DNA from: a virus
Strand: one strand, 5' to 3'
DNA length: 64,000 bases
Virus record (IMG/VR): IMGVR_UViG_3300046660_000385
Span: 32,001-96,000 of that record
The notes under the pieces are model-generated. The model was not told the DNA's origin. It was given only the letters and a program-made list of their open reading frames with translations, and searched no databases. Positions 5,355-57,300 of the stretch are shown here, piece by piece (the stretch's first letter is position 1; each line of letters opens with the position of its first letter). Made by a program: the position numbers and the translations under genes.

Positions 5355-5450
5355 TGTTACGGGGCGCAGGCCTGACCTCGACCAGTAACAATAGGATGGT
5401 GTCCCGCCTAGCTTGACACTATGCGTCTGTGGTCTACACTCTAGTGGTAC
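5355..5450 (+). promoter_or_regulatory. Putative res site overlapping the sigma70 promoter of the resolvase
   Basis: Inverted TGT..ACA pairs (TGTTAC 5355 / GTAACA 5385; TGTC 5400 / GACA 5415); TTGACA 5413-5418, 16 nt, TACACT 5435-5440. Confidence 0.6.
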
Positions 5451-5473
5451 ACAACCACCACGGAGGGCAGGCC

Positions 5474-6046
5474 ATGAGCAAGGGACCAGGGAAGCGGATC
5501 GGGTATGTGCGGGTATCGACGACCGACCAGAACACGGAGAGGCAGCTTGACGGGATCGAGCTGGACAAGACGTTCGAGGACAAGTGCAGCGGCAGCACGA
5601 CCAACAGGCCGGCATTGAAGGCGATGCTCGACTACGTGAGGGACGGCGACACGCTCTACGTCCACTCGCTGGACCGCCTGGGCCGCAACCTGCACGACCT
5701 GCTGCTGATGGTGGCCCGCCTGACCGATGACGGCGTGACGGTCATCTTCGTCAAGCAGAACCTGACCTTCTCGGGCGAACCCAACCCGATGAACGACCTG
5801 ATGCTCGGCCTGCTCGGTGCCGTGGCGCAGTTCGAGAGGGCCATGATCCGCGAGCGCCAGGCCGAAGGGATCGCCATCGCCAAGAGGAAGGGCGTGTACA
5901 AGGGCAGGAAGCCCACGCTCGACGACGCCACGGTGCAGGAGCTGCGCCTGCGCGCTGCCGACCCCGCGATCTCCAAGGCCGCGCTGGCCAGGGAGTACGG
6001 CATCAGCCGCATGACCATGTACCGCTACCTCGACGGCCACGCCTAA
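5474..6046 (+). CDS. Small serine recombinase (resolvase/invertase) with C-terminal HTH
   Basis: GYVRVSTTDQN catalytic Ser motif, SLDRLGR, FERAMIRERQAEGIA..AK..G.YKGRKP, HTH ALAREYGISRMTMYRYL. Confidence 0.95.
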   Translation: MSKGPGKRIGYVRVSTTDQNTERQLDGIELDKTFEDKCSGSTTNRPALKAMLDYVRDGDTLYVHSLDRLGRNLHDLLLMVARLTDDGVTVIFVKQNLTFSGEPNPMNDLMLGLLGAVAQFERAMIRERQAEGIAIAKRKGVYKGRKPTLDDATVQELRLRAADPAISKAALAREYGISRMTMYRYLDGHA

Positions 6047-36347: not shown

Positions 36348-36359
36348 GGACCGGACGCT

Positions 36360-39300
36360 ATGGCAAACGACAACAAGGATCTGGGCGACTTCGCCGCGAT
36401 CACCCCTGGCACGCAACCCGACCTGGGCGAGTTCGCCAAGATCACGCCCAACGGCGGCAAGCCGCGCAGCGCGATCGGCGAGATCGGCAACCAGCTCAAG
36501 GCCGGTATGCTGGTCGACCTGCCGAAGATGGCGGGCCAGGCGATCCAGTACACGTCCGATCCTGGTCGTCCTGTCTATGAGTTCGGCAAGAGCATCGCCG
36601 ACTACGCGCGCGAGCAGGAAGCGCGCCCCGACCTGCAGCCGCAGGAATACGACCACAACATCGTCACAAACACGCTCGCCGCCGGCGCCCGCATGATCCC
36701 GCAGTCGATCATCCCGGCCGCCGGTGTCGGCCTGGTCGCGTCCGGCGTCGGCGCTGGCGCTGGCGGCGCGCTGCTGGCCGGTTCCGTGCTGGGCGCGGCC
36801 CCGGCCGGCATGGCGCAGGCCGAGGACACGCTGGAAAAGGCCCGCGCCAAGGGCGACATTTCCGAGCACGATGCGCTGGTGGCCGCCCGCAAGACCGGCC
36901 TGATCGAGTGGGGCGGCGAGACCGTCGGCAACTACCTCGGCGGCAAGATGTTCGGCCTGGCCGGGCGCGCGATCGGCAAGACCACCGGCACCGCCGCCGA
37001 GCGTGCGCTGCAGGAAGCGACCAACACGCAGGTGCTCAAGCCGTGGATGCGCCAGCTGCCCGAGACCATCATCGGCGAAGTCGGCACGGAAATGGGCCAG
37101 AACGCGGGCGAAGCCTACGTCGAGCAGCAGGCCGGGATCGACAACCACGCGCCGTGGGACGCCGCCAAGGAAGCGATTCTGCCGACCATCGGCATGACCG
37201 CGCTGCTGGCCCCGTTCGGCCTGGCCGGCATGGGCGTGAACGCGCACCGCCAGCAGCAACGTAACGACGTCCTGACCTCGCCGGATGCCGACCAGAACTC
37301 GCGCACCCGCATCGCCGCCGAGATCGCGCCCGAAATCGAGAAGGTCGACCGCCAGGCCGCGGCGAATTTCCGCGTCAACGCAGCCCGCGCCATTTCGTCG
37401 AACCAGCCGCTGACGCTGGACTCGTCGCTGTTCGCCGACCCGGCGGCCGCCCCGCCCGCGCCAAGCGCCCCCGCCGCCCAGCCGGCCATCAACCCGGCCG
37501 ACGCGCCGGACGCCGGCACCGACGTGGTGCCGCAGAACGCGATGACGGCCGCTGCCAGCCTGGTGCAGCCGATGCTGCCGATGCGCCAGGAGGGCGCCCA
37601 GAAGCAGGCCGAGGAACGCACCCGCACCACCGGCATCCCGCACGAGGTCGTGCCGCACCCGAGCGCGGCCGGCATGTTCGGCGTGCGCGCGGTCCAGGAC
37701 CCGGCGCTCGAACAGGGCGCAGCCCCGGCCGCCGAGGCGCCGCCGCTCGATCCTGCCGCGCCGGCGACCCCGGCCGCCCCGGTCGGCCTGCAGATCGGCG
37801 AGACCGTGCAGGCGACGATCAACGGCGAGGACGTGTTCCCGGAGGGCACCCGCATCACCGGGTTCTCGCCGAACGGCAAGTTCGTGCTGGTCGAAGGTTC
37901 GACCGCCGGCATCCCGATCGAGAACATCACCCGCCTCGACCCGGCCGCCGCCGCCGCGATCGAGCTTGGTGCGCACGAGGCCGCCACCAGCCCGCAGAAC
38001 GACCGCCCGGAGCCGTCCGAGGCCCAGAAACACGCCGGCAACTACAAGAAAGGCCCGGCCGAGCTGCAGGGCCTGCCGCTGATGATCGAGAACCCGGTCG
38101 GCTCGACCCGCACCGGCACCGACCCGGACGGCACGCCGTGGTCGACCACCATGAGCGACCACTACGGCTACATCCGTGGCACCAAGGGGTCCGACGGCAA
38201 GGAGCTGGACATCTACGTCGGCCCGAACCCGGCCAGCCACCATGTGTTCGTGGTCGACCAGATGAACCAGGACACCGGCGAATACGACGAGCACAAGATC
38301 ATGCTCGGCTACAACTCGCCCGAGCAGGCCCAGCGCGCCTACGAGGCGCACTACACGCAGGGCTGGCAGGGCGGCGAGAACGTCACCGCCACCACCGTCG
38401 ACGGCCTCAAGGAGTGGCTCAAGGGCGACACCACCCAGCCGTTCAATCCGGCCTACTACCCGGACATGCAGATCCCGGCCGGACCGGACCTGTTCAACAC
38501 CGAGCAGGCCGCGCCGCCAGCCGTCACCACCGAGGCCCCGGCCGCGCCGCAGCAGCCGCAAGACAGGGAGCAGATCGCCCGCGACACGCTGCGCGAGCTG
38601 GGCCAGATCTCGAACGATCACTTCGGCGGCAACCACCCGAACGCGATCGACTTCGGCACCGCCGACGGCACGTTCGCCGGCCTGGGCACCCTGAACATGG
38701 ACGAGCAGGGCAACATCGTCCTGCGCCGCTTTGCCTACAACGAGGACCATGTCCTCAAGAACGGCAAGCCCGCCAGCCTGCAGGAAATGATGGATGCTTC
38801 GCTGTTTTCCGGCTCGACCCCGGACGCCGGCGCGGTGCCGACCTCGGGCCTGGCTTCGTTCCATGACGCCTACAGCAAGCGTGCGTACGACGCGATTTTC
38901 CGCATCCAGCCGCAGGAACTGGTCGAGCTGGCCAGGCAGGGCAAGGCGGTGCTCGGCAACCTGAGCGAGGGCGAGGTCCTGCTGTCCGGCGACATCGCGG
39001 GCAAGTACCTGAGCGAACTGAACGGCAAGCCGGTCACGCCGGAAGAACTTCAGCGCCTGACCAAGCCGGCCGGGCGGATGCAGGGCGCGGCGCTGACCGA
39101 GGACGAGCTGAACGCCGCGTTCGACCAGGCCGAAAACGAGCTGGCGCAGGAGCAGAAGCCGCCCGCGCAGGAGCCGCAGGCCCAGGAACCGTCCGCACGC
39201 TGGGACAACGCTACGCCGGACGAGCGGATCGACATGCTGACCAAGGCCGGCCGAGGCGACGTCGCCGAGGACTTCGCCCATGTGGGCTGGGACGACCTGT

Positions 39301-42300
39301 CGCCCCGCGCCCAGGAAGCGCTGTCCAGGCCCGCCCAGCAGCCGCAGAGCGCCTACGAGCGCTACAAGGAGATCATGACGCGCGGCGGCAGCGGCACGGC
39401 CAAGCTGGTCGACGAGATCCGCCGCAGCGACGAGCTGACCGACGCCCAGGTGCAGGAGCTGGTCGGGCTGCCGAAGATCGACAAGGCCGCCGAGGAGAAA
39501 AGCCGCGCCGACAGCGCCGCGTTCGGCCAGCGCGCCGCCGAGATCCTGTCGACCCTGAAAGGCCTGAAAACCCCGGACGCCATCGCCAGCGCCCAGCAGA
39601 CCCTGTCCACGCTGGCCGACGACATGGACGCGGTGAACGACCGCTTCCGCAACCTGGTGCGCAAGGCCGCCGACGAGATCCCGGCGTGGATGCCGCACAA
39701 CCTCGGCCAGGCCGGTGACGCCGAGCGCCAGGCCGCCAACCGCGTCAAGAACACGCTCGAAGGCGTGGCCAACTTCGGCAAGAACGTCACCGCGCCGGAA
39801 CACGCCGGCAACGAATTCAAGGAATACGACCCGAACAACAGGTTCGAGCCGACCGCCTCGCCCGAGGACGCGATCGGCGAGGCCGAGATCGACGAGCGCG
39901 TGATCCCGCTCACGATGGACGCGAGCGACTTCAAGGAAGTCACCGACGAGTGGGCGTCGCTGTTCGCCGCCCCCGGCCAGAAGGTCATCACCGAGCAGCG
40001 CGCCAAGCAGGCCGGCGTCATGTCGCAGGAAGAAGCGGCCGCCCAGCTGGCCAAGTGGAAGGAACACGTCGCCAAGCAGGCCGAGGAGCACCGCGGCGAG
40101 AACTCCCAGCGCACGATCCTGTCGCTGTTCGACCTGTCGGGCGAGTGGTCCAAGCCGTGGCGCGAAGCCGGCTACAACGTCGTCACCTTCGACATCCAGA
40201 CCGGCCAGGACGTGAACGACTTCTCGGTCGAATACTTCACCGACGAGTGGGACCTGAGCGACGTCTACGGCATCCTGGCCGCCGCGCCGTGCACGGATTT
40301 CACGCACGCCGCCTCGCGCCTGTGGGCCGTGAAGGACGCCGACGGCCGCACCGAGGCCTCGAAGGAGCTGGTGCTGCAGACCCTGCGCACCATCGAATAT
40401 TTCCGTCCGAAGTTCTGGGCGCTGGAAAACCCGAGCGGCGGCCGGATCGAGAAAGTCACCGGCCTGCCGTCGCCGCGCCTGTCGTTCCAGCCGCACCACT
40501 TCGGCAACCCGGAGACCAAGCCGACCGCGCTGTTCGGCAAGTTCAACCCGGAGCTGCCGCTGGCGAACGTCGCCCCGACCGGCAGCAAGACCGACAAGGT
40601 CGGCGGCAAGAGCATCGAGACCAAGAACGAGCGCTCGGAGACCCCGGAAGGGTTCGCCTATGCGTTCTTCATGGCCAACAACTACATCGACCAGACCCCC
40701 GAGCAGCGCCTGGTCGGCGACTTCCCCGAGCTGTCCGGCGCCGTCAAGGGCGCGCTCAAGGCCGGCATGGACGAAGAAGCGATCCGCGACGTCGTCACCC
40801 GCACCTACGAGGACGGCGACCCGGATGCGGCCCGCAACGAGCTGGTGCAGGCCGTGGCCGACCACGTCAAGGAGAACGGCGCCCCGGCCAAGCCGGCCGG
40901 GGTCGACTACCCGAACCGCCGCCTGGGTTTCCAGAAGGCGGCCACGGACGAGGCCGACGCCTACAACGACCACGCCTGGGCCAACATCGCCGCGGCCAAC
41001 ATGAAGGTCGGCGACAAGTTCGAGCTGGGCGGCAAGCAGCAGAGCGTCGAGTCGATCAGCGACAAGACCCTGAAACTCAAGGATGCGGACGGCAAGACCC
41101 GCACCCTGAACCCGGACGGCGTGGCGTGGGACCAGTTCAAGCGCGACCTGGCCGGCCAGCTGGTGGTCGAGAACCTGCAGGCCAACAACATCATGAAGCC
41201 GGCGCGCCCGCTGATCGACATCCTGCGCCGCGATCCGGCCGCGCACGTCGACAGCAAGGGGTCCGTCTACCTGCGCGACGGCGGCCTGGTGCCGGCGGCA
41301 AAGCAGGAAGATGAGGAACAGGCGACCGCCTGGGCTGACGTCGAGACCGGCGACCGGATGGACGTCGTCGCCTATCGCGCCCGTCCGTTCGGCGCGAAGG
41401 AGGATGGGCACCCGAAGGGCGGCGTGTTCTACGCCGAGACCGAGGACGGCACCGCCGGGTACGGCGGTACGGCTGCCGAAGTCGTCAAGGAAAAGCTGTC
41501 GCTCACGAACGTCCTGGTGGTGGACAACAAGCAGGCGGCATTGACGAAGCTGTTCGGCAAGAACAGCGACGAGCTGGGCAAGTATTTCGATGCCCGCGAC
41601 GACGAGTCCAAGAACGCCGAGAGCGTGGCGGACGAGCTGATCGGCCCGGCGGCGAAGGCAGCCGGCTACGACGCCGTTCTCTACAAGCAGGACACCGACC
41701 TGTACGGCAACGCCACCCGCTCGCTGCAGGTGGTGCGCAATGTCGACAGCCAGGCCGAGCAGGCCAAGCCAGAGGCGCCCGCGCCGGCCGCGACCGAGGA
41801 CGAAGCCAAGCCCGGCAAGATCCGCTCGTTCAGCGAGGACGAGAAGCGCGCGATCGCCGGGATCTCGCTCGGCACCGGCACCCTGGTCAACCGCGAACTC
41901 GAACTGGGGCTGGGCAACTTCATCCGTCCGAACACGATCAAGGCGCTGCGCGAGAAACTGCTGGGAATGGACCCGGACAAGGTGCGGCCGTACATCGACG
42001 GCGCCGTGCGGCGCTACGAGCGCGAGCGTGCGGAAAAAGAGCCGGTCGTGCAGAACCAGCAGAAGATCCACGTCTACGACGAGAAGGAAGCCAAGCCGCT
42101 CCTGATTATCGCCTGCACCGAGGAAAAGCTGGCGGGCCGCCACGCCGTGATCGACCTGTACCAAGGGGCGATGTTCGACGTGCTGCGCAAGTGGCTGCCG
42201 AAGGGCGCGATCGACGTCTACGTCCTGTCGGCCAAGTACGGCCTGGTGCGCGCCGAAGCCGTCCTGCAGAGCTACGACGAGAAGATGACGGCCTCGCGCC

Positions 42301-45300
42301 AGAAGGAGCTGATCGCCGAGGGATTGGTCCCGAGCGACTTCAAGGGCAAGAATTTCAGCGAGGTCTACATCGCCGGCGGCCAGCTGTACGCCCCGGTGGC
42401 GCAGGTCTACGCCGAGCAGCTGCGCGCGGCCGGCTTCGTCGGCCCCGAGGCCGAGGTCAAGGGCACGGTCGGCTTCATCGGCCAGCAGCGCGGCCAGCTG
42501 GGCGAATACCTGCGCACCGTGCACGAGCGCCTGGGCACCCTGCCGGAACGTCCGGCGCCGCTCGAGGTGGGCGTGCGCGTGCGCATCAAGCGCCTGACCA
42601 AGGCCCCGGTCGCGGGCGTGTCGCTGAAAGACGCCAACCGCTTCGCCGGCCGCATGGGCACGGTCGAGCGCGAAATGATCGTCGGCGAGAACCGATATTT
42701 CATCGTCAACCTGGACGACACCCCGGAAAAGGTCGAGCGCCAGCAGGAATTCCACAGCGGTTTCCTCGACGTCCTGACCCCGGCCGAGCAGGCCGCGCCG
42801 GGCGAGCTGGCCGACGACGTCGAGAAGCGCAAGGCGCAGATCCGCGAGCAGGTCGAAGCCACGCTGGGCGCCGACAAGCAGCTGGTGGCGCAGGCTGACC
42901 TGGTCGGCACCGGCAACCGCTTCGTCGACTTCAAGGACAGCTACAAGGCCGCGTTCGAGAGGACGCTGGCCCAGATGGCCAAGGACGGGAAGATCGAGGC
43001 GCGCGACGTCCAGATGTTCACCGACAGCCTCGACAAGCTGCCCGGCTATCTTGACCGCGCCGCGCGCCAGTTCATCAACGACCACCACGGCCCGGACAAC
43101 CAGGAACTGTCCTCGCTCAAGCACAAGTGGGGTTATACCGACGAGAACGTACCGAAGGACGGCCGCTTCCCGGACTACGAGACCGCGCTGAAATTCGACA
43201 ACAAGCGCACCGGCAAGGAACAGTTCTCGTTCGAGATCCAGGTGGCGCAGGGACCGAACGGCCGCTGGGCCGTCTCGTCCGGCTACCAGCAGGGCGGCCA
43301 GACCGGCAACGCCACCGGCATCGGGATGATCCCGCCGGCGCTGACCTCGGAAGCGCACCGCACCCGCATGCTGGCCGTCGAGGCCGGCGGCGAGGCGATC
43401 CGCCAGCACCTGGCCGCGAACGGCAAGGAATCGCTGCGCACGACCGGCAATATCCTGACCGCGATCACCAAGCTGAAACTGCTGGGCGAGCTGCGCGACA
43501 AGGCGGCCGCGCTGGCCGCGCGCGCCGAGGCCGCCGGCGCAGAGAAGCTGGCCGGCCAGATCCGCGAGGTCGGCCGCGACATGCAGCCCAACGACGTCAA
43601 CCTGACCCGCAAGCGCGTCGACGAGACGATCGCCGGGCGCGAGAAACTGGTCCGCGCCGCCGAAAAGCGCGCGGAAAAGAAAGCCGCCGAGAAAGCCGCC
43701 AAGGCCGAACCGAAGGCCGACCCGAAACCGGAGCCGGTCGCGCCCGAAGCGCCGCAGCCGAAGCAGGACGCGCCAGGCACCCGCCGCTTCCCGAAGTCCG
43801 TGCGCACCGCGATCGCCACGCGCCTGCAGCAGGTGCTGGACGGTTTCAGCGCCGACCGCAACACCCGCGAAGGTCGCGCCCGGTCGATCATGCGCAGCGC
43901 GATCGAGGAGCTGGGCAAGGAAAAGACCGTCATCGACGTGGCCGACCAGCTGCGCGATGCGTCCAGCGACCTGTTCAAGCAGTTCAAGGTGCAGGCCGAC
44001 GTGCTCGACGAGATCGCCGACCAGCTCGACGCGGCCGAGAACCAGCAGGAGCAGGAAGTCCCGGCCGCGGTCGCGGAACCGGCCAGCCCGGCGAAATTCG
44101 ACATCGGCACCCCGCCCACGCTGGACTACCGCCTGCAGACGCGCGGCGGCACGCTGTACCTGATCCCGCCGGTCGGCAAAGGTTTTACGAAGGAAACCCG
44201 CGACGCCCTGCGCGACTGGCTCAGGAGCGCAGGCTACTTCTCCAACGCGACCGGCGACCACATGGTATCGGCCAGCCAGATCACCGGCGGTCCGTCCACC
44301 GACCTGATCCCTGACGGCGTCGAGGAACAGAAATACGGCAGGCTCGTCGCCAAGGAAAAGGCAAAGGACGACGGCGCCCTGGCCGGCTCGCGCCCGATGT
44401 CGCCCAAGCAGTTCGAGACCGACCTGAAAGATCACGGCAAGCTGCGCTTCGGCGAAGCGACCTACGAGGTCAAGCCGGCCGGCCGCGGCGGCTTCGGCCG
44501 CATCCAGGCCGACACCTATATTGTCGAAGTCAGCTATCCGCACAGCAACAAGCAGATCGGGTTCCAGCAGAACCTGTCGCTGCAGCAGGCGGTCGAGGCC
44601 GCCCGCGTTGACGCGTTCGACTGGTGGGACAACCGCCGCGTCAAGGAAGCCGAGTTCGCCAAGAAGCGCGAGAAGCTGGTGCGCGCCGGCCAGCGCGAGC
44701 TGTTCGGGCTGTTCTCGAAGGACCCGGATCTGATGAGGATCGCGGCCGACGCCGGCCTGCCGGTCGAGGTCGACGCCGCCGCGCGCCGCGCGATCGTGGA
44801 CTGGGTCGCCGCCGAAAAGGCCGTTGCCGACCTCGATCCCGACCGCAAGCTGATGCTGGACAACATCGTCATCGGCGGCCGCGTGACGTTCCCGTCCGAG
44901 TGGTTCGACTCGCTGCGCAAGTACCTGAAACGCGCGGTCAAGCGCGCCGAGAAGGAGCTGGACCGCGACCCGGCCGTGTACCAGGCCGAGCTGATCCGCT
45001 CGGCGCAGCTGGTCGGCCTGCCGCCCGAGAGCGTGGGCGTGTTCAAGCTGGGGTTCGACCACGCGCTGGCCGGCAAGACCAAGTCGACCCTGCCGCCGTC
45101 GACCATGATGGCGCAGGGCTATGACGCCGGCGCCGCGTGGATGAAATCGGACGAGGGCCAAGCCTGGTTCACCGGCCGCCGTGGCAAGAAGCTGGAAAAC
45201 ACCGGCGCCGACCTGCGCCGCTGGTTCGACGAATCCAAGCGCAAGATCAAGGAAGTCACGGCCGACAACCTGACCGCGTCCTACGAGATCATCAAGGGCC

Positions 45301-48300
45301 AGGCCTCGCGCGTGGAGGCGTTCGCCAACGTCGCCGGCCCCGGCGCCACGCCCGGCACCAAGCGCTACATCACGGCCGTGCGCGACAGCCTGCGTCCGTT
45401 CCAGGAATGGCTGCTCGAAAACGGCCCGCTGCAGACCCTGTACGGCGAGACCGGCTACCGCGAGAGCGAGTCGTTCAGGATCACCCGCTTCCTCGACGGC
45501 CGCGCCTACCCGATGACGTACGACGCCACCGGCAAGCGCGTCAGCATGGAGGACGCCACGGCGCAGGAACGCCTCGAGCTGCTGCAGGAGGCGGCCGCCA
45601 CCTACAACGCCCGCCTGCAGGGGCTGGCCGAGGCGATGAGCGGCGCGACCACGGTCGAGGAGGCCGCCCGCGCCTACCAGGGCTACCTCGTCAAGAACAA
45701 GGACGAGTACGTCTACAGCAGCACCCGCCTGACCGAGGCCGGCAAGGAAATCGACCGCCTGGTGCGCGGCCGCGTCCACGACCTGGAACCGGACACCCGC
45801 GAGGTCGAGAACCTCATCAAGACGCAGAACGAGCCGGACGGCCCGAGCAACCGCAAGCAGGCGCTGATGGTGCCGAAACTCGACCACGTCGTGCGCGAGG
45901 GCGAGAAGCTGCAGGATTACCGCAAGGGCGAGAACGTCACGCCGCAGCAGATGAAGGACACGTTCGGCTTCGCCGACGTCGGTTTCGGCAAGTGGGTCGG
46001 CGCCAAGCAGGACCAGGACCACCTGAACTACGCCTATGACGCGTTCATGGACCTGGCCAAGCTGCTCGGGATCGACCCCAAGCACATCGGCCTGGGCGGT
46101 TCGCTGCACTTCACGATCGGCGCACTCGGCCACGGCCGCCACGCTGCGCACTTCCAGGCCAGGCAGCCGCACCCGCACGGCGGCACCGTGCCGGTCATCA
46201 ACGTCACCAACACCAAGGGCGACGGCACCGTGGCGCACGAGTGGTTCCACGCGCTCGACCACGCGCTGAGCGAGCAGTGGCACGGCAGCAGCTGGGTCCA
46301 GCATGAGGCCGTGCAGCGCGTCGTCCGACTGCTGTCGACCAGCCGCGACATCGAGTTCTTGGTGAAGAAGCTGCCGCTGGCCGTCAGCGGCCAGTCGTTC
46401 ATGCGCTATGGCCGCCGCAACACGCCGATCCACAACCTCAAGACCGAGGCCGGCCTGATCGAGAACGCCGAGGCGGTCCTGCGCTACGACGCCGGCCGCC
46501 AGGGCGGCCGCCCGACCGACTACAAGAAGAACGCCGACGCGATGGGCGAGGACTACTGGGGCAACCCGAAGGAGCTGCTGGCGCGCGCCGCCGAGGCCTG
46601 GGTCCACGACACCCTGGGCGGCACCTCGAACTACCTGGTCAACCCGGCATGGGTCGGCGAGGGCAAGGTCAAGGCGCCGCAGTACAAGGGCGCGCCGTAT
46701 CCGATGGGCGAGGAAAGGAAACTGTTCAACGATGCGCTCGGCGCGCTGGTGAAGGCGCTGCGCTTCAACGACAAGGGCGTCACCCTCGACAAGGAAACGT
46801 TCGACAAGGAATTCCCGGACCTCGACCGCCAGTTCAAGGAAGCCTACGAATCCCTCAAGGCCCAGATCCCGTCGATGGTGCGCGCGCACCTGGCCGAGAA
46901 GGAAGCGCGCAAGGTGGCCCAGAAGTACGCCAAGGACGAGGCCGAGCGCGCCAAGCAGGCCGAGGCGCTGGCGGCCCAGAAGGCGAAAGAGCAGGCCGAG
47001 CGCGATGCCGCGGAGGCACGCCTGCGCGAGGAGCTGGAAAAGCAGCAGCAGCAGCCGGTCGAGCCGCCTAGCGGTCCGCTCTCCGAGGGCGACCTGGAAG
47101 CGCTGTTCGACCAGGCCGAAAGCGAGCTGGCCGAGGAGCAGCAGGAGCAGCCCGAGGCGAAAGACCCGGGCGAAGCCACCCAGGCCGACCACTGGACGCA
47201 GGAGGATTATCAGCACCTGCTCAAACTGATCGACGACGGCCAGGTGTTCCTGCTGGCCGATCCGTCGCGCGGCCTGTCGATCATCCACGACATGCCGGGC
47301 CAGTACACCGAGCACAAGGGTTTCGGCCTGTTCCACACCAAGACCCCCGAGTACGACGTCACCTGGGACGGCGGCGGCGAAATGCGCCAGACCCCGGGCG
47401 GCAAGTCGTACACGCTGGTGTCGATCAAGGAAGGGCGCGAAGCGTTCCTCAAGGCGATCAACTGGGACCAGGCCAAGACGAAGCTGCAGGCGAAACTGAT
47501 CGTCAAGACCGGCCCGAAAGCCGCGCCGACCCTGTCGGCCGAGCAGGAAAAGAGCGCCAAGCAGCTGATCGGCGAGGCCGCCAAACTCGGCGTCACCGGC
47601 ATCGAGGAGTCGCTGAAAGGCCTGATCCAGCTGTTCGGTGGCAACGCCCTGAAATCGTTCCCGGCCGGCTTCGACGAGGAGTCCTACAAAGCCGCGAAGC
47701 CGCACTTCGAGAAGGCGCTGGCCGCGTTCCAGGCCGCCGGCAAGACGCTGGTCGACCTGTTCAAGATGCTGATCCAGCACTTCGGCCCCGGCATCCGCCC
47801 GTACGCGATCCAGTTCGCCAAGGAGCAGGGCCTGTCGGCCAACCTGGCCCCGCCAGTGTCGGCGACCGAGAAGATCGCCAAGTGGGTCGAGCAGCGCCTG
47901 CAGGCGAAGGAGACGTTCGGCTCGGCGCCGCTGTTCAAGGTCGCCGACGAAGCGTTCGGCGGCACCCAGGCCGAGGGCAAGTACAGCGTCAAGGACGCCT
48001 ACGACGCGATGGAAGCGGGCATGAACCGCCACATCATGGCCCAGGGCATCACCCCGGATGGCGCCGCGACCGACGCCGTGCACAAGATCGAGGAGCTGGA
48101 CGGCTGGACCCAGCGCCTGGCGACCCAGACCCGCCGCACCGAGGAAATGGACGAGTACCAGCAGTTCTCGACCCCGCCGTCGGAAGCGTTCGCCGCGGCC
48201 TGGCTGGCCAACATCCGCCCCGGCGAAGTCGTGCTCGAGCCGTCGGCCGGCACCGGCAGCCTGGCGATCTACGCCAAGCTGGCTGGCGCCGACGTCGTCG

Positions 48301-51300
48301 TCAACGAGCTGTCGTCGCGCCGCGCCGAGGTCCTGAAAACCGTGCTGCCCGAGGCGCGCCTGTTCCAGGAGAACGCCGAGCAGCTGCACAACATCCTGCC
48401 GGCCGACGTCAAGCCGAGCGTGATCCTGATGAACCCGCCGTTCTCGGCGACCGCCGGGCGCATGCAGGGCGCGCGCGACACCAACAACGGCGCCACCCAC
48501 ATCGAACAGGCCCTCAAACGCCTGCAGGAAGGCGGGCGCCTGGTGGCGATCGTCGGCAGCGGCATGGCCGCCGACCGTCCGGCGTTCAAGAGCTGGTGGA
48601 CCAAGATCCGCCAGGACTATAATGTACGCGTCAACATCACCGTCGACGGCAGCAACTATGCCAAGTACGGCACGACGTTCGACAACCAGATCCTGGTCAT
48701 CGACAAGACCGGCCCGACCACGGCCGCGGTCGTCACCGGCGAGGTGAAAACGCTGGCCGAACTGCCGGCACTGCTGGAAGGTATCCGCAATGAACGAAAA
48801 GCTGCTGAAGGTACGGATGGCGCGCACCCTTCTGGTCAACCAGATGCCGATCAACAGGGCGGCGATCGAGTTCCTGCCGGGCAAGAAGCCGCTGGCGACC
48901 GAGCCGGCGGTGCTGACGCTGATCCGGTGGGGACTGGACAACGGGATCAATCCGATTCCGGTGGCGCCGGGCTACCCGGACATCGACAGGATGGAAGCGC
49001 AGGTGGACGCGATGGCGAACAGGTGGGAGCCGAGGCGGGCGGTGAGGTTTCTGACCAACCCGGAAAGCCAGGACCCGCTGGACGTGGTGCTAACGGCCGA
49101 GGAACTGGCGGCCTCGGCAACACCCGAGGACGCAGCGGAACTGCTGATCGAGAATCTGTACCACGCGATGGTGGCCAACAGCCCGTAACCGGCGAAGTCA
49201 CGGTCGAAGCGTCCGACCAGGCCGCCGCCACCGGCGAGCTGTCGGACGCGATCTTCGAGAACTACACCCCGCAGCGCTTGTCGATCCCGGGCGCCAAGCC
49301 GCACCCGGGCAAGCTGGTCCAGTCCGCCGCCATGTCGGCCGTGCTGCCCCCAAGCCCGTCCTACGCCCCGAACCTGCCGAAAGCCGTGATCGAGAAGGGC
49401 CTGCTGTCACTGGCCCAGCTCGAGGCGGTGGTCTACGCCGGCCAGGCGCACCAGCAGATGCTGCCGGGCGGCGAGGTGCGCCGCGGCTTCTTCATCGGCG
49501 ACGGTACGGGTGTTGGTAAAGGCCGCGAGATCGCCGGCATCCTGCTGGACAACCAGCGGCAAGGCCGCAAGAAAGCGGTCTGGCTGTCGGCCAAGCAGGG
49601 CCTGCTGCGCGATGCGAAGCGCGACTTCGCGGGCGTCTCGGGCAACCCCGACCACATCCTGGCGCACAACAAGGTCAAGGCCGGCGAGAAGATCGACGCC
49701 GACAGCGGCATCCTGTTCACGACCTATGACACGCTGCGGATGGGCAGCGACATCAAGAACAACGCCCCGGGCCTGGCCGGCCCCGGCACCATGAGCGCCG
49801 AGCAGCTCAAGGCCACCTACCCGAAAGGCACGCCGATCGAGTGGCGCGGCCGCAGCGGCACCCTCGAATCGTGGGATACGCGCGGCCACAAGGCCAAGAT
49901 CTCCCTGCCCAACGGCGTGCAGACGACCGTGCGCTTCGACGAGCTGAAGGTGAACGGCCAGAGCGGCTGGGGCGGGATCGACCACGTCAAGAACGACAAG
50001 AAACTCGATTCCAAGTCGCGCCTGAACCAGATCGTCGAGTGGCTGGGCAAGGACTTCGACGGCGTGATCGCGTTCGACGAAGCCCACAAGATGGGCAACG
50101 TGCTCGAACGCAAGGGCAAGCGCGGCAAGACCAAGCCGTCGGCCACGGCGCTGGCCGGCGTGGCGCTGCAGGAAGCGCTGCCGAAGGCGCGCATCGTCTA
50201 CGTCTCGGCGACCGGCGCCACCGAAGTGCACAACCTGGCCTACGCGACCCGCCTGGGCCTGTGGGGCGAGGGCAGCGCGTTCGCCAAGGTGACGGACTTC
50301 GTCGGCGGCATCGAATCCGGCGGCGTGGCGGCGATGGAACTGGTCTCGCGCGACATGAAGGCACAGGGTTCGTACCTGGCCAGGTCCCTGTCGTTCGACG
50401 GCGTCACCTACGACCGCCTCGAGCACCAGCTGACCCCGCTGCAGAACGACATCTACAACGAGCTGGCGCGCGCCTGGCAGGGCGTGCTGCAGAACGTCAA
50501 CGCCGCGTTGGAGGCCACGCTGCAGAACAAGGACCCGAAGGCGAAAAGCAACGCCCTGTCCGCGTTCTGGGGCAACCACCAGCGCTTCTTCAGCCACATC
50601 ATCACGGCCATGCAGATGCCGACGATCATCGAGGCCGCCCAGCGCGACCTGGACAACGGCCACGCGGTCGTGATGCAGCTGGTGAACACCAACCAGGCCG
50701 AGCAGGACCGCCAGGCCGCCAAGATGGCCAACGACGACGAGGCGATCCCCGAGGACTTCGACTTCACCCCGCGCGACACGCTGCTGAACTATGTGCGCCA
50801 CTCGTTCCCGGTGCAGCAGCACGAGGAGTACACCGACGAGGAGGGCAACAAGCACACCCGCCCGGTCGTCGACTCCAAGGGCAACCCGGTGTTCAACCAG
50901 GAAATGGTGGCCAAGCGCGACGCGCTGGTGAAGAACCTCGAACAGATCCGCGTGCCGGACAACCCGCTCGACATGATCGTGCGCGCGTTCGGCGTCAGCA
51001 ACGTGGCCGAGATCACCGGCCGCTCGCGCCGCTTCATCCAGGAGCAGGACCCGAAAACGGGCGGCTTCAAGGTCGTCGAGCAGAAGCGCCCGGCGTCCGC
51101 CGTGCCGGCCGATGCCGACGCGTTCATGGACGACAAGAAGCGCGTGCTGGTGTTCTCCGACGCCGGCGGCACCGGCTATTCGTTCCAGTCCGACCTGGGG
51201 GCGAAGAACCAGCGCCGCCGCATGCACTACCTGGTGCAGCCGGGCTGGCGCGCCAACAACGCGGTGCAGGGCTTCGGCCGCACGCACCGCTCGAACGAGG

Positions 51301-54300
51301 CCAATCAACCGCACTACGTGCTGCCGACCACGAACCTGAAAGCGCAGAAGCGTTTTATCTCGTCGATCGCACGGCGCCTGGACCAGCTGGGCGCACTGAC
51401 CAAGGGCCAGCGCGAGACCGGCGGCCAGGGCCTGTTCGCGGCCACCGACAACCTCGAATCGCAGCACGCCGCGGACGCCGTGCAGGCGTTCTTCGTCGAC
51501 ATGTACAACGGCACGGCGAAACTCAACTTCGCCGAGACCACGGCCGCGCTGGGCCTGAACGGCCTGATCGACGAGAGCACCGGCGCGCTGATCTACGGCA
51601 AGCTGCCGGAAGTGCCGAAGTTCCTGAACCGCCTGATGTCGCTGGAAACCCACCGCCAGGACGAGGTGTTCGAGGAGTTCTTCAACCGCCTGACGGAAGT
51701 GATCGAGCGCGCCAAGGCCAACGGCACCTTCGACGCCGGCATGGAGACCCTGCGCGCCGACAAGGTGACGAAGCTGCGCGACGAGGTCGTCTACGAGGAC
51801 AAGCGCACTGGCGCCAACACCCGCTATGTCGAGCTGGAACTGACCCACCCGACGCACTTCAACTCGTTCGACCAGGCCCAGTCCGAGATCGTCCGCTGGG
51901 GCGACAAGTTCCTCGGCTTCTTCCGCAACGAGAGGACCGGCAAGGTGTTCGCGCTGATGCGCACCGGCACCTCGACCGACGCCAAATCCGGCAACGTGGT
52001 CACGCGCGGCGCGCAGCTGCGCACGACCGGCGGCTACCGCTACGGCGACGAGGTCGACAAGATCATCAAGGGCGCGCGCGGCGAAAAGACGGTCAAGAAA
52101 ACCGTGGTGCCGATGCTGTACTCGCCGCCGACCAACGAGGTGCTGACCGAGACCTACACCAACACGAACGACAAGCAAATGACGGTGTCCTCGCACCGCC
52201 TGGCCGACCTGCTGATCCAGCGCGGCCTGGAACGGGTCGAGCAGACCATCCTGGCCGGCCCGTCCGGTTCGGAGCGGGACGCGTTCATCCGCCTGCTGGA
52301 CAAGATGCGCCCGCACCTGGTGGCGCAGAAGGAGACCGAGCGCCAGGTGCCGGCGTTCGTGCGCCTGACCGCTGACGCGGCGCGCTCCGAGTGGGATGCC
52401 GAGGTCGCCGCCACCCCGACGACCTACACCAGCAAGACGCACCTCTTGACCGGGATGCTGCTGCCGATCTGGGACCGCCTGCCGGGCGACCCGCGCGTGG
52501 TGCGCACCCAGACCGAGGACGGCGAGCGCCTGCTGGGCCGCGTGGTATCCGAGCGCAACCTGGACCAGACCCTGAAAAACCTCGGGGTCGGCTCGAACCT
52601 GTCGAAGGTCGCACCGAGCACCGTGCTGCAGCGCCTGATGGATGGCCAGCGCGGCATCCTGGCCAACGGCTGGCTGCTGCAGAAGGTGCGCGTCTCGAAC
52701 GACAGCCGGATCGAGATCAGCGGCCAGTCGCTGGCGTACAACCGCGCCGAGCGCGAGCTGCTGACCAACAACGGCGCGTTCGTCGAGCGCATCAACTGGC
52801 AGGAGCGCGTGTTCATCCCGACCGGGGAGCAGGGCGTCAAGCTGCTCGAGAAGCTGCTGGAATACAAGCCGCTGGTCGAGCTGGGCAAGCCGGCCGAGGC
52901 CCAGACCGAGGACGAGGACGCCGAGTTCTCGCGCGGACGAAGCGACACCGGCATGTCCAGGGGCGACGTGCAGAACGTGGTCGCGCCGATCGTGAAGGGC
53001 TGGCTGAACGGCCCGAAAGTAACTGTCGTCCAGAGCGTGGCCGACCTGCCGTTCAAGGCACCTAGCGACACCCGCGGCGCGACCTACCAGGGACAGGTCT
53101 GGATAGTGGCGGACAACCTCGGACACGCCGGCGAAGTGCAGTTCGTGCTGGCGCACGAGGCGCTGGGCCACATCGGCCTGCAGGCCCTGCTGGGCAAGGA
53201 AGCGCTGACCCGCGAGCTGAACCGCCTGCGCCTCATCAACCCGGAGCTGGCCAAGGCCGCGCGCGAGCAGGCCGCCACCTTCGGCTACGACCTGAACCTG
53301 GCCACCGAGGAAGCGCTGGCGGATCTGGCCGGCACCGGCAAGACCATCAACGGCTGGCAGAAGTTCGCCGCGCTGGTGCAGAAAGCCCTGCGTCAGCTGG
53401 GCCTGGACCGGGTCGCCGACTGGATGGAGGGCAAGACCCAGGCCGAGACCATGTCCTTGCTGGCCCGCGCCAGGGAGGCGGTCGAGGGTTCGCGCGCCGC
53501 GCGCACCTTCGGCAACATGGAGACCGCCCGGTTCTCGGACGGCATGAAGTCGCCCTGGTTCTCGCAGCTGGCGCGCCAGATCGAGCGCCTGCCGCAGAAG
53601 TCGGCCACCGCCCTGCAGTGGGGCGAGACCATGATGGGCAGCGGCTTCGCCCAGAAGGGCGTCAAGCAGGACGAGATCTACTGGACCGGCGTGATGGACT
53701 GGCTGCTGATGCAGGGCGAGAACACCAAGGTCACGAAGGCCGCGCTGCTGGACTACCTGGCCGAGAATGGCGTGCGCGTCACGGAAACGATGCACAGCGA
53801 GGAAGTGCCCGAGCCGACCCCGGAAGGCCTGGCCAAGCGCGAAGCGGTGCTCGCCAAGTACAACGAGCGCCTGGACGACCTGCAGGAGCGCATCCTGGAC
53901 AGCGACGAGACGCCCGAGCGCCTGGCGCTGCAGGAGGAGTGGTCGAACCTGATCGACCAGCGCAACATCGAGGCCGACCTGGCCTACCGGCTGCCGTCCA
54001 ACCGCTTCCAGCGTCCGCGCTACGCCAGCTACACGCTGCCGGGCGGCGAGAACAACCGCGAGCTGCTGCTGACCCTGCCCGCGCGCGAGCCGTCCTTCAA
54101 GCTGGACGACTACATCGGCGAGCTGAGCGACAAGTACGGCTGGGAGGTCCAGGGCAACATGCGCCGCCCGGGGTGGACCGAGGACGACCTGGCGCCGGAC
54201 GAGCGCACCAGGCTGCACGCGCTGCAGGAAGAATCGCTGCAGGAGGACAACGAGCGCACCCGCAATACCTTCCAGTCGAGCCACTGGGACCAGAAGAACG

Positions 54301-57300
54301 TGCTGGCGCACGTCCGCTTCAACGACCGCACCGACAGCGAGGGCAAGCGCGTACTCCACGTCGAGGAACTGCAGAGCGACTGGGGGCAGATCGGCAAGCG
54401 TGACGGCTTCAAGGGCGACCCGGTCCCGCCGGCGGAACTGGACGCGGCCGCCAAGGCCGCGCGCCAGGTGCTGAACAGGAACGACAACCTCGGCTTCGAC
54501 TACACGATCGAGGCGATGAGCGCGATCGAGCACCACAACGACTGGAAACACCGCTGGGAGCTGGACACGCCGTCGGACTATGCCGTGGTCGACCACTACC
54601 GGCAACTGTACATGTTGAACGCGCTGGCCAATGCCGGCGTGCCGCAGGCGCCGTTCGTCGGCAAGACCGAGGCCTGGCTGAACCTGGCTTTGAAGCGCGT
54701 GATGGTCTACGCCGCCGAGAAGGGCTACGACCGTGTCTCGTTCGTCACCGGCGACCAGGCCGTCAACCGCTTCAACCTGTCGCAGCAGGTCAAGGCGGTC
54801 GAGGTCGAGAAGGCGGTCGGCGAGCCGGGCTACCGCGTCAACATCACGCTGCTGGACGGCGAGCCGCACGAGACCTGGGCCAACGATGACCACGACCTGG
54901 TCAACCTGATGGGCAAGGAGCTGGCCAGCAAGGCGATCGACCAGATCAAGGCCGATCCGTTCAGCGCCGCCCGCTTCACCGGCGACAACCTGAACCTGGG
55001 CGGCCACGGCATGCGCACGTTCTACGACAAGATCGTGCCGAACGCGGTGAACAACCTGATGAAGGGGCTGGGCGGCGGCCGCGTGTACGAGGGCGACGTC
55101 ATCCACAAGGAGCCGTACGACCCGAAGCCGGGCACGACCAACTACGTCGACGAGGACGGCCGCCTGGCCTACGCCAACCACGGCGTCACCGGCGACCCGG
55201 ACTTCGGCGCCAACAACTACTACCCGTACAAGGGGTGGAGCAGCCAGCCGGTGATCGACATCACCGACACCATGCGCGAGAAGGTACAAGGCGGCCTGCC
55301 GCTGTTCTCGCGCAACGTCGAGGACACCGGCCCGCTGCCGGCGGCGAGGGACGAGGCCAGCGTGCGCCTGTCGCGCGCCACCCCGCAGCAGCTGGCGCGC
55401 CAGGTCGGCGACACGCTGAAAACCAACACGGTGACGAAGCTGGGCCGCACGCTGTCGCACTACCGCTCGATCGGCCTGCAGTTCCTGGGCCGCCTGCAGC
55501 TGACCGAGATCTACGGCAAGCTGTTCCCGCAGGGCGACCGGCCAAACATGCTGCAGTTCTACAGCGAACTGGCCGCGTTCATGGACGCCGAAAAGACCGA
55601 GGGCGGCAGCAAGGCCGACGCCATCGTCGACCGCTGGGCCAAGCTCAAGCGCGCCGACGAGCTGGCCAGCCTGATGCACGACAGCACCCGCCGCGAGATC
55701 GACCCGTCCGAGGCCTACGTCACCGGCGACAACTACACGCACTGGAAGGAACTGAACGCGCGCTACGAGGCCCTCAAGAAGGCCGAGCCGGAAGCGATCA
55801 AGATCTTCCACGAGGCGGCGCAGATGTACCAGACCCACTACGCCAACGTGCGCCAGGCCGTGAAGGACCGGATCGACCGCACCCTGACGGCGCACCCCAA
55901 CCGCAAGAGCCTGATGCGCCGGATGGAGCAGGAGTTCTTCGGGCGCGGCATCAAGGGCGTGTACTTCCCGCTGGCGCGCTTCGGCGACTACGTCGTCACC
56001 GTGCGCTGGGTCGGCAAGGACCCGAAACCGGGGCAAAGCGTGGTGCGCGAGGCCGTCATCTTCGCCGAGACCCTGAACCAGGCCGAGGACGAACGCCGGC
56101 GCCTGCTGGCCGAGTACCCGGCGTCCAAGGGCTACCAGGTGATGCCGGTGACGAAGCGCGCCGAGTTCAACGCGGCCAGGGATTCCGTCTCGCGCGGCTT
56201 CCTGAAAAAGCTGTACGCCGCACTGGACGACGCGGGCCTGCAGGACCCGTCGCTGCAGGACACGATCAACCAGCTGTATCTGACCAGCCTGCCGGACCTG
56301 TCCTGGGCCAAGAGCGGCATCCACCGCACCGGCATGCCGGGCTTCAGCCAGGATGCGCGCCGCGCGTTCGCCCACCACATGTTCCACGGCGTGTCCTACC
56401 TGGCCAAGCTGAACTACTCGGACCGGCTGGCCGAGGTGCTCGAGGGCATGCAGAAGTTCGCCAACGCCAACGCCGCCAACCCGGACTACGACCACGTCAA
56501 GGCGCAGCAGGTCATCGACGAGATGCACAAGCGCCACGACAACTACATGAACCCGAAGGGCAACCAGCTGTCGACGAAGCTGACCTCGTTCGGTTTTGTC
56601 TGGTTCCTGGGTGCGTCGCCGGCCTCGGCGCTGACCAACCTGCTGCAGACCCCGACGGTGGCGCTGCCGATCCTCGGCGGCCGCTTCGGCTACTCCAAGG
56701 CGACGTCGGCGCTGATCGAGGCGTCCGGGCTGGCGATGCGCGGCCACAACGACATGGGCAAGATCCTCAAGGGCGACGAGAAGCGCGCCTGGGAGGAGTG
56801 GCTGCGCATCGGCCTGGTCGACCTGACGATGGTGCACGATCTGGTCGGCGTGGCCTCGGGCCGCGACAACCAGCTGCACGGCAACATGCGCAAGGTGATG
56901 AAGGTGGCATCCTTCATGTTCCACCACGCCGAGCGCTTCAACCGCCAGGCGACGGCGCTGGCGGCCTACCGGCTGGCGCGCAAGGACGGCATGAACCACG
57001 ACGACGCGTTCCGCGCCTCGGTCGAACTGACCAAGGCCTCGCATTTCGATTATGCCTCGTCAAATCGCCCGCGCTTCATGCAGGGGTCGGCGGCGCAGGT
57101 CGTGTTCCTGTTCAAGCAGTACAGCCAGAACCTGATCTACACCTTCGCGCGCAACGCGAAACTCGCGTTCCAGGGCGACCGGCAAGCGCAAAAGACGCTG
57201 GCCGGCCTGCTCGTCACCCACGCGATCGCGGCCGGCATCATCGGCCTGCCGGCGGTGTCGACGCTGCTGGCGGCCGCGTCGATGCTGGGCGGCAGCGACG

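What the first reader, a model, noticed from the sequence alone, without database searches (positions are those of the whole stretch)
48790..49188. Fully nested same-strand gene in the methyltransferase-helicase linker of the giant polyvalent protein
Seen: between the N6-MTase and the strawberry-notch helicase, the 7229-aa frame turns into G/D/R/A/Q low-complexity sequence (RNERKAAEGTDGAHPSGQPDADQQGG...) with many A/T third positions, unlike the rest of the gene. Over the same interval the +1 frame has an ATG after GAAGG and GC3-rich codons (AAG CTG CTG AAG GTA CGG ATG GCG CGC ACC...). It encodes a globular-looking helical 132-aa protein (MNEKLLKVRM...LTLIRWGLDNG...RWEPRRAVRFL...AAELLIENLYHAM), and the linker starts and ends at its ATG and TAA. 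Inference: a real gene is embedded in the giant gene and read as a flexible linker in the host frame. It could be a co-inherited inhibitor, antitoxin or chaperone of the ejected MTase/helicase. Standard annotation would miss it, and similar linkers in other DarB-like proteins may hide a family of such genes.
Basis: partly seen in the sequence, partly recalled or inferred. Interest (0 to 1): 0.85.

Follow-up and report, generated by a model that had tools for sequence, protein, structure and literature searches.

The report
Real gene nested in giant-protein linker
A 132-codon gene for a small, well-folded helical protein is written one base out of step inside the floppy spacer of a phage's 7,229-residue methyltransferase-helicase gene, and the same unannotated gene-within-a-gene is kept in related phages and plasmids, though its job is unknown.

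Summary
Inside 48790..49188 the codon-position G+C pattern of the 7229-aa ORF (0.67/0.44/0.93) moves by one base into the +1 frame. That frame has GGAAGG 8 nt before its ATG.

The 132-aa product is a real protein. It has 50 database relatives at E<=1e-3, mostly 120-130 aa. Its AlphaFold model has pLDDT 93.2, against 52.1 for the host-frame reading. Nested-frame dN/dS is 0.11-0.73 and host-frame 0.60-2.03.

The same nesting, +1 frame between MTase and strawberry-notch helicase, occurs in 11 of 18 loci that hold the gene, down to 35% identity. These include four named plasmids where only the giant CDS is annotated. In low-GC carriers T is depleted at nested third positions (0.05 against 0.30-0.34), which keeps the host frame open (P=0 of 5000). 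So both frames are under selection.

No family or fold match was found. Function is inferred only. There are no expression data.

This scan has noted such nested genes before on other DNA, including a relative of this family. I found none in print for polyvalent proteins.

The parts
36360..58049 (+). Giant polyvalent-protein ORF (7229 aa), the host gene
   Evidence: Pfam hits are InPase, DUF6884, LPD1, AAA_34, Helicase_C_4, LPD39 and a weaker ResIII match (2.3e-05). GC by codon position is 0.67/0.44/0.93.
47718..48788 (+). Adenine-MTase-like module of the host protein. It ends in the conserved helix ...LLEGIR.
   Evidence: The NPPF motif and many other columns are invariant in 6 of 6 aligned sequences. 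The boundary was chosen by analogy with the 357 aa that precede the nested gene in plasmid locus L012.
48776..48781 (+). Shine-Dalgarno-like GGAAGG, 8 nt before the nested ATG. It also encodes host residues L-E-G.
   Evidence: A GGAG/GAAGG-type motif stands 7-10 nt before the start in every locus with the MTase C-terminus upstream (win, L002-L006, L008, L011-L014), in the free-standing L009, and in L025.
48790..49188 (+). Nested gene, +1 frame, 132 aa (P0001), TAA stop at 49186..49188
   Evidence: A second in-frame ATG lies at 48817.
48789..49190 (+). Host-frame reading of the same DNA: a 134-residue G/D/R/A/Q-rich spacer between MTase and helicase
   Evidence: AlphaFold pLDDT 52.1, pTM 0.09, no secondary structure. 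57% rare codons. Host-frame dN/dS is above 1 in 5 of 6 pairs.
49191..51746 (+). Strawberry-notch-type SF2 helicase module of the host protein
   Evidence: Pfam AAA_34 and Helicase_C_4, matched up to residue 852 of the piece that starts at 49191.

Best explanation
48790..49188 is a genuine, separately translated gene. On the giant gene's mRNA, ribosomes start at its own Shine-Dalgarno and ATG in the +1 frame. They make a 132-residue acidic protein of seven helices.

Ribosomes already translating the giant ORF read the same DNA in frame 0 as a disordered, rare-codon spacer. That spacer joins the adenine-methyltransferase module to the strawberry-notch helicase.

Both readings are kept by selection. 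The nested frame is selected for its amino-acid sequence. The host frame is selected only for staying open, through avoidance of T at nested third positions.

Shown:
- the gene is real
- it is conserved
- it is nested at the same spot in phage-like contigs and plasmids
- it is dual-coding

Inferred:
- Internal initiation is inferred from sequence signals only.
- Function is inferred from position and from precedents: TraH within traI of RP4, Slr0489S within slr0489, and the small Ulx and DdrB proteins that act with P1 DarB. My best guess, at about 35%, is that the small protein is an accessory partner of the MTase-helicase dyad. It would be made in cis and in step with the dyad, and would hold or regulate it in the producing cell.
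- An independent anti-defence role is about as likely, at roughly 30%.

The confidence given here is for a real, separately translated nested gene, not for the function.
For: Frame signal. GC and codon-usage periodicity switch to the +1 frame exactly between the ATG and the TAA.

Homologues. There are 50 proteins at E<=1e-3, 13 at <=1e-10, and the best is 7.4e-35 at 59% identity. Most are 120-130 aa and begin at the same Met. One of the 50 (P0012) is a spurious repeat-protein hit.

Fold. AlphaFold gives pLDDT 93.2 and pTM 0.87 with a 25-row alignment. The host-frame reading gives 52.1 and 0.09 with an 8-row alignment.

Selection by frame. NG86 dN/dS for the nested frame is 0.37, 0.41, 0.54, 0.73, 0.11 and 0.57. 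For the host frame it is 0.60, 1.54, 1.58, 1.16, 1.78 and 2.03, in the same six pairs. Per-site differences between the window and L004 by nested position are 0.12/0.11/0.20. These match the flanks by host position, 0.11-0.13/0.09/0.20.

Conserved nesting. The window and 17 loci match the family profile or tblastn.
- In 11 of these 18 (win, L002-L007, L023, L012-L014) the host frame is open through the whole fetched locus, with the small gene in its +1 frame. This holds down to 35% identity.
- L025 adds a fifth named record check.

Host frame kept open. Nested codons were resampled with host codon usage.
- The expected number of host-frame stops is 7.4 in L012, 6.6 in L014 and 3.8 in L006.
- P(0 stops) is 0 of 5000, 0 of 5000 and 0.014.
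- T3 is 0.05 against 0.30-0.34, binomial 3e-11 and 1e-13.

Start signals. ATG, or GTG one codon upstream, with a GGAG-type motif is conserved.

Independent survival. An intact small gene persists where the giant gene is gone or broken (L009, L020-L022, L008).
Against: There is no expression evidence of any kind. No RNA run holds the stretch, and no peptide or ribosome data were available.

No promoter-like site lies within 47800..49800 (0 found). There is no notable RNA structure at the start (z = -0.48).

In this high-GC window the host frame would stay open by chance. P is 0.09 by within-gene shuffling and 0.60 with host codon usage. The dual-selection argument therefore rests on lower-GC relatives.

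The nested frame's codon adaptation (0.497) is below all 348 windows of the giant gene (minimum 0.60).

The SD and ATG also encode the conserved host residues L-E-G-I-R-N. Their conservation is therefore not independent proof of initiation.

Two relatives join frames by an indel. P0005 fuses the MTase C-terminus in frame to the small protein, and L010 has an indel inside the small gene. These could hint at frameshift products.

The family's database clusters are tiny, at 1-2 members each. The function has no direct support.
Confidence: 0.85

Rival explanations
1. The 132-residue sequence is not made alone. A fraction of ribosomes translating the MTase part shifts +1 just before 48790. This would yield a truncated isoform that ends with this domain at the TAA.
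For: P0005 (183 aa) reads MTase C-terminus, then 15 residues of the +1 frame, then the small protein as one ORF. In L010 the MTase ORF ends at the small gene's stop after an indel.
Against: The +1 frame has a stop only 14 codons before the ATG (TGA at 48745). In relatives the stop lies 0-19 codons before the start in 10 of 12 loci listed; L009 and L013 are open much further upstream. I saw no recognisable slippery site in that short stretch, by my own reading. Database relatives start at the aligned Met. Start codon and SD are conserved. Free-standing copies lack any MTase upstream. The model is ordered from residue 2.
Confidence: 0.05
2. It is a relic. A once independent gene was captured in the spacer, is now silent, and serves only as linker-encoding DNA.
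For: There are no expression data. In high-GC carriers the host frame stays open by chance. Nested-frame CAI is lower than the rest of the gene.
Against: Nested-frame dN/dS is below 1 in 6 of 6 pairs, among them all five pairs in which both copies are nested. It is 0.11 between the two Methylomonas plasmids, while the host frame there gives 1.78. The ORF, start and stop are intact in every nested lineage examined, down to 35% identity. A disordered spacer imposes no such constraint.
Confidence: 0.05
3. It is an artefact. Two compensating sequencing or assembly indels put a normal in-frame domain of the giant protein out of frame.
For: The frame switch has sharp edges, as two indels would give.
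Against: The same frame relation, with no net indel, appears in independent sequences. These are contigs L002-L005, contigs of four runs that include whole-stretch pieces of 17.7 kb and 36 kb, and complete plasmid records. The switch edges coincide with an SD-ATG and a TAA. No database relative carries the domain in frame inside a giant protein.
Confidence: 0.02

Closest known systems
traH inside traI of IncP plasmid RP4
   Same: [quoted passage not shown] TraH stabilises the TraJ-TraI relaxosome (passage read in PMC7314908).
   Different: The host gene is a relaxase, not an MTase-helicase polyvalent protein. Whether TraH overlaps a disordered spacer was not checked. No TraH sequence was compared here, so homology is untested.
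Lambda Rz/Rz1 spanin genes
   Same: One gene lies wholly inside another (Rz1 embedded within the Rz reading frame), and both products are made. This is as described in bioRxiv 10.64898/2025.12.20.695498, section 'Genes-in-genes' (passage read). That the embedded frame is +1 and on the same strand is recalled, not from that passage.
   Different: In Rz/Rz1 the embedded product is the proline-rich, unstructured one, according to that passage. Here the embedded product is the folded one and the host reading is the unstructured spacer.
Slr0489L/Slr0489S 'genes-in-genes' of Synechocystis 6803
   Same: A long intragenic out-of-frame gene. Both products were detected, they bind each other, and the nested product neutralises the toxicity of the host product (bioRxiv 10.64898/2025.12.20.695498, section 18 read). 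The paper's clean test is a start-codon change that is synonymous in the host frame, and it is possible here too.
   Different: The proteins are unrelated and the host is small (151 aa) and membrane-bound. No binding or toxicity is shown for the present pair.
P1 DarB with its small partners Ulx and DdrB
   Same: DarB is the archetypal virion MTase-helicase (PMC5512222, section 14 read). Ulx, DarB and DdrB are named together in protection against EcoB and EcoK type I restriction (passages read in PMC12810830; that passage words it as conferring sensitivity).
   Different: As far as I recall, those partners are separate genes, not nested ones. There was no match of P0001 or of this junction in the phage collection.
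Polyvalent proteins of phages and conjugative elements (Iyer et al. 2017)
   Same: The host gene fits the description. It is a giant multidomain protein with an MTase-SF2 helicase dyad, LPD domains, and a strawberry-notch-type helicase of the kind the paper exemplifies from Methylomonas.
   Different: A term search of the paper's main text found 0 occurrences of 'overlapping', 'frameshift' or 'linker', and 'nested' only for a hairpin. Its supplements could not be seen.

Membership tests
Same-strand fully nested out-of-frame gene pair ('gene in gene', Rz/Rz1 type) | The inner ORF lies wholly inside the outer ORF, on the same strand and in another frame | tested here: met
   48790..49188 lies in the +1 frame of 36360..58049.
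Same-strand fully nested out-of-frame gene pair ('gene in gene', Rz/Rz1 type) | Both reading frames are maintained by selection | tested here: met
   Nested-frame dN/dS is 0.11-0.73. The host frame is kept open by T3 depletion: P(0 stops) is 0 of 5000 in L012 and in L014, and 0.014 in L006. In the window itself this test is uninformative.
Same-strand fully nested out-of-frame gene pair ('gene in gene', Rz/Rz1 type) | The inner gene has its own translation start signals | tested here: met
   GGAAGG lies 8 nt before the ATG, and an equivalent motif and start are found in all nested lineages. This is sequence evidence only.
Same-strand fully nested out-of-frame gene pair ('gene in gene', Rz/Rz1 type) | Both products are detected in cells | not testable with these tools
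   No RNA run holds the stretch. No proteomic or ribosome-profiling data were available.
Polyvalent protein with MTase-helicase dyad (Iyer et al. 2017) | Adenine MTase with an NPP(Y/F) motif, fused at its C terminus to an SF2 helicase | tested here: met
   NPPF is invariant in 6 of 6 sequences. AAA_34 and Helicase_C_4 lie downstream in the same ORF. The definition was read in PMC5512222, section 14.
Polyvalent protein with MTase-helicase dyad (Iyer et al. 2017) | Further polyvalent-protein domains (LPD families) in the same polypeptide | tested here: met
   LPD1 (2.9e-12) and LPD39 (1.3e-25), plus InPase and DUF6884. LPD36 before the MTase was not detected by Pfam at E<=0.01.
Any described protein family for the small protein (Pfam, PHROGs, NCBIfam, PADLOC, PDB sequences) | A significant profile match | tested here: not met
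   0 of 25 family members match any model at E<=0.01 in each of the four libraries. There were 0 PDB sequences at E<=1.
TnpV-like nested genes (Pfam PF14198), named in earlier notes of this scan for other giant genes | A match to PF14198 | tested here: not met
   No Pfam family at E<=0.01 for any of the 25 members.
Known fold for the small protein | Structural similarity to a solved chain | tested here: inconclusive
   Foldseek against PDB gave 0 matches at E<=0.001. VIA-align against 48,161 chains gave a best Z of 4.3, with 0 at Z>=5. A weak or missing match does not show that the fold is new.
TraH of RP4 | Sequence or fold homology to TraH | not tested
The resemblance is in gene arrangement and acidity only.

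The most novel reading that the evidence does not exclude
The spacer of the giant protein is the younger reading. A pre-existing, independently mobile small gene landed between (or was retained between) the MTase and helicase modules, and the giant ORF now reads through it in another frame. The two products would then form an inseparable two-frame module in which the small folded protein binds and restrains or escorts the giant injected enzyme, in the way Slr0489S neutralises Slr0489L. That would make these hidden genes a general, unannotated regulatory layer of polyvalent anti-defence proteins in phages and plasmids.
Probability: 0.25. Interest if true: 0.85.

Novelty: new variant of a known kind. 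Interest (0 to 1): 0.7.

Why it matters
Long same-strand overlapping genes are thought to be rare in bacteria and phages, and annotation pipelines exclude them by rule. Here the hidden gene sits in RefSeq plasmids of cultured methanotrophs and a purple sulfur bacterium, under a single annotated giant CDS.

The case also reverses the usual picture of overprinting. The embedded product is the folded, conserved protein, and the long host gene uses the other frame merely as a spacer.

It adds an unknown player to the MTase-helicase anti-restriction dyad typified by P1 DarB. There is a clean genetic handle, because the nested start can be removed without changing the giant protein.

It also shows a usable signature for finding more such genes. 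That signature is a one-base shift of codon periodicity, plus depletion of T at the nested third position.

Tried and rejected
Direct searches with P0001 gave nothing.
- tblastn against plasmids and against phages found no match.
- The junction query against phages found no match.
- The ESM Atlas gave no usable hit.

Within-gene synonymous shuffling is uninformative. It keeps the low T3, and P ranged 0.05-1.0 over 10 loci. I replaced it by resampling with host codon usage. That test is still uninformative in the high-GC loci, with P 0.39-0.60 for win, L004 and L005, and 0.12 for L013.

No promoter, terminator or notable RNA fold was found at the start.

Complex prediction of the small protein with the MTase module and the helicase N-lobe scored 0.00 and gave no verdict. 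It is not evidence either way.

Sequencing runs: no RNA holder is listed. The four DNA runs laid are contigs only, and they served only to check for indels.

A sample of 400 scored genomes of the class of G001 held the gene only in G001 itself. One further genome was not scored.

The 3739-aa hit P0012 is a repeat protein with no profile match and was dropped as spurious.

Neighbours of the free-standing copies share no common partner. They include a DUF3987 primase-like protein, Eco57I/MmeI-type MTases, T5orf172+ResIII, and Endonuclease_NS+SUKH.

Literature. Searches found no description of a gene nested in a polyvalent-protein or MTase-helicase linker. Supplements of PMC5512222 and of the Synechocystis preprint were not seen.

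Direction of evolution is not settled. The free-standing copies L009 and L020-L022 keep low T3 (0.03-0.10 against 0.17-0.26 in neighbours). L009 and L020 also keep a short remnant of the helicase N-terminus. This suggests descent from nested ancestors, but a foreign origin would look similar.
Full report
WHAT IS THERE

The window is part of a 117,858-base virus record. It carries a phage portal gene (Pfam SU10_portal, 2.6e-30, at 12790..16032).

ORF 36360..58049 (+) encodes 7229 residues. Pfam finds InPase, DUF6884, LPD1, AAA_34, Helicase_C_4 (the strawberry-notch helicase), LPD39 and a weaker ResIII match. Upstream of the helicase lies an MTase-like module whose NPPF motif is invariant in 6 of 6 aligned sequences. 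This fits the polyvalent proteins with an MTase-helicase dyad described by Iyer et al. 2017 (PMC5512222, section 14 read).

ORF 48790..49188 (+), 132 codons, lies in the +1 frame of this gene, exactly between the two modules.

THE OBSERVATION

The giant gene has G+C of 0.67/0.44/0.93 at codon positions 1/2/3. Inside the interval the host-frame values become about 0.89/0.62/0.39-0.47. That is the same pattern shifted by one base into the nested frame.

In 60-nt windows the switch falls at the ATG and at the TAA. It is the only clear switch in the 21.7-kb gene.

Codon adaptation was measured against the rest of the gene.
- The host-frame spacer scores 0.115, and 57% of its codons are rare.
- The nested frame scores 0.497.
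- The 348 windows of the gene score 0.60-0.90.

GGAAGG stands 8 nt before the ATG.

Independent contigs show no net indel here. These are L002-L005 and contigs of four runs, so this is not an assembly artefact.

THE SMALL PRODUCT IS A REAL PROTEIN

An exhaustive HMMER search found 50 proteins at E<=1e-3. Thirteen are at <=1e-10, and the best is 7.4e-35 at 59% identity. Most are 120-130 residues and start at the aligned Met. One hit, P0012, is a spurious repeat protein.

With 25 of these as alignment, AlphaFold gives seven helices with mean pLDDT 93.2 and pTM 0.87. As a control, the host-frame reading with an 8-row alignment of host-frame readings gives pLDDT 52.1, pTM 0.09 and no secondary structure. 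The alignment depths differ.

The family is acidic, with median pI 4.74 over 51 sequences.

No member matches Pfam, PHROGs, NCBIfam or PADLOC (0 of 25 each) or any PDB sequence. The model has no clear structural relative:
- Foldseek found 0 matches at E<=0.001.
- VIA-align gave a best Z of 4.3 among 48,161 chains.

THE NESTING IS CONSERVED

Eighteen sequences hold the gene: the window and 17 loci.

- In 11 of the 18 the host frame runs open through the whole fetched locus, with the small gene in its +1 frame between MTase and helicase. These are win, L002-L007, L023 and L012-L014. L007 and L023 are one contig, and L006 is identical to them in this region.
  - They span 99% down to 35% identity to P0001.
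  - They include plasmids of Methylomonas sp. LL1, Methylomonas sp. AM2-LC and Thioflavicoccus mobilis.
- A nineteenth locus, the plasmid of Methylotuvimicrobium alcaliphilum 20Z, was added later and shows the same arrangement.
- Where annotation is listed, only the giant 'strawberry notch-like' CDS is annotated.
- In four loci the host frame is open across the small gene but the giant gene is truncated or absent (L008, L011, L020, L022).
- In three it is broken. L009 and L021 have stops, and L010 has one indel that breaks both frames.

The feature is clade-specific.
- Of 589 plasmid records that match the junction, only 4 match the small protein.
- Five more distant plasmid genes have 10-60-residue Pro/Ala-rich spacers and no profile match (best E 0.24).
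- The gene was found in 1 of 400 scored genomes of one bacterial class, and that one was the query's own genome.

BOTH FRAMES ARE UNDER SELECTION

dN/dS in the nested frame is 0.11-0.73 in six pairs. In the host frame it is 0.60-2.03, above 1 in five of six.

Differences by nested codon position copy the pattern of the flanks by host position.

The host frame's first position is the nested third position. A stop there needs a T. In the two Methylomonas plasmids the flanking host codons have T3 of 0.30-0.34, but the nested gene has 0.05 (binomial 3e-11 and 1e-13).

With host codon usage, 7.4 and 6.6 stops would be expected and none is seen (0 of 5000 resamplings each). For L006 the figures are 3.8 expected and P=0.014.

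In the high-GC window itself the host frame would stay open by chance (P about 0.6). So this window alone does not carry that argument.

HOW IT MOST LIKELY WORKS

Shown: a conserved, folded protein is encoded in the +1 frame, and the host frame is kept open across it as a disordered, fast-evolving, rare-codon spacer.

Inferred: the small protein is started at its own SD-ATG on the giant mRNA. The start (ATG, or GTG one codon upstream in L006 and L011) and a GGAG-type motif 7-10 nt before it are present in every nested lineage. The same bases also encode the conserved host helix end L-L-E-G-I-R-N, so this is not independent proof.

No internal promoter-like site or special RNA fold was found.

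Function is open. Four precedents point to an accessory or restraining partner of the dyad, made in cis.
- TraH of RP4 is an acidic protein encoded in another frame within traI. It stabilises the relaxosome (PMC7314908, passage).
- Slr0489S is nested out of frame in slr0489. It binds and neutralises the host product (bioRxiv 10.64898/2025.12.20.695498, section 18).
- P1 DarB is named together with the small proteins Ulx and DdrB in protection against EcoB/EcoK restriction (PMC12810830, passages).
- One free-standing copy (L009) again sits upstream of MTase and helicase genes.

I put the accessory reading at about 35% and an independent anti-defence role at about 30%.

RIVALS

- A +1 frameshift isoform (5%) is disfavoured. 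There is a stop 14 codons upstream of the ATG. The start is conserved, and free-standing copies have no MTase upstream.
- A silent relic (5%) is disfavoured by nested-frame purifying selection among nested copies.
- Compensating sequencing indels (2%) are excluded by independent assemblies and complete plasmids.

WHICH CAME FIRST IS NOT SETTLED

MTase-helicase fusion is the common state, both by Iyer et al. and in 5 of 5 distant plasmids with short spacers. So the small gene was probably gained inside an existing spacer.

Longer, fused and tandem-duplicated family members exist (P0043, P0044, P0049).

The free-standing copies I could inspect keep the low-T3 scar. Two of them keep a remnant of the helicase N-terminus. 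This suggests they descend from nested copies.

COMPARISON AND NOVELTY

Fully nested same-strand genes are known, for example Rz1 in Rz, traH in traI and Slr0489S/L. The kind is therefore not new.

What differs here is threefold. The embedded product is the folded, conserved one. The host reading is a mere spacer inside a giant polyvalent protein. The family and fold are undescribed.

Term searches found no description of this in print. Supplements were not seen.

This scan has reported nested genes in MTase-helicase spacers on other DNA before. One of those genomes carries the L006-type relative of the present family, sharing 20 of 20 short words. Those notes gave me the traH and 'genes-in-genes' leads, and I checked both in the papers.

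VERDICT

It is a real nested gene (0.85) of unknown function. I rate it a new variant of a known kind, with interest 0.7.

Noticed in passing
window 33771..48950 (-) and 49407..57044 (-): Mechanical antisense ORFs of 5059 and 2545 codons mirror the giant + strand gene. This is a by-product of GC3 0.93. The gap between them sits on the nested gene, where the codon periodicity shifts.
   Followed up: no
window 36360..58046; L006 3..12297: The giant protein has only 2 Cys in 7229 residues. The related giant ORF in L006 has 0 Cys in 3955 codons. The near absence of cysteine may relate to passage through a tail or secretion channel, but this was not examined.
   Followed up: no
window 48789..49190: Read in the host frame, the spacer is a 134-codon patch with 57% rare codons, against 4% elsewhere in the gene. 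It could slow ribosomes between the MTase and helicase modules.
   Followed up: partly
proteins P0043, P0044, P0049 (database relatives): The small-protein family also occurs as a tandem duplication (P0043, 252 aa) and inside longer proteins (289 and 316 aa). Their genomic contexts could not be fetched.
   Followed up: no
L008 5787..6629 (Rugamonas fusca contig): A 281-codon fragment holds only the MTase C-terminus, the spacer with an intact small gene, and the first residues of the helicase. It lies downstream of a serine recombinase gene, and a reverse-transcriptase gene lies about 3 kb further downstream.
   Followed up: partly
L010 5938..6335 (Pseudomonadota MAG): One indel inside the small gene splits both readings. 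The MTase ORF then ends at the small gene's stop, and the helicase becomes a separate ORF. This could be a real pseudogene or a sequencing error.
   Followed up: partly
window 12790..16032 and 5429..6046: There is an SU10-type portal gene and a serine resolvase with an HTH_7 domain. Other first-reader notes on this genome propose a phage-plasmid with a TrfA/ParAB replicon. I did not check that.
   Followed up: no
window 46950..47159: This is a borderline stretch where host GC1 (0.86) slightly exceeds GC3 (0.84). It is not a clear frame switch.
   Followed up: no
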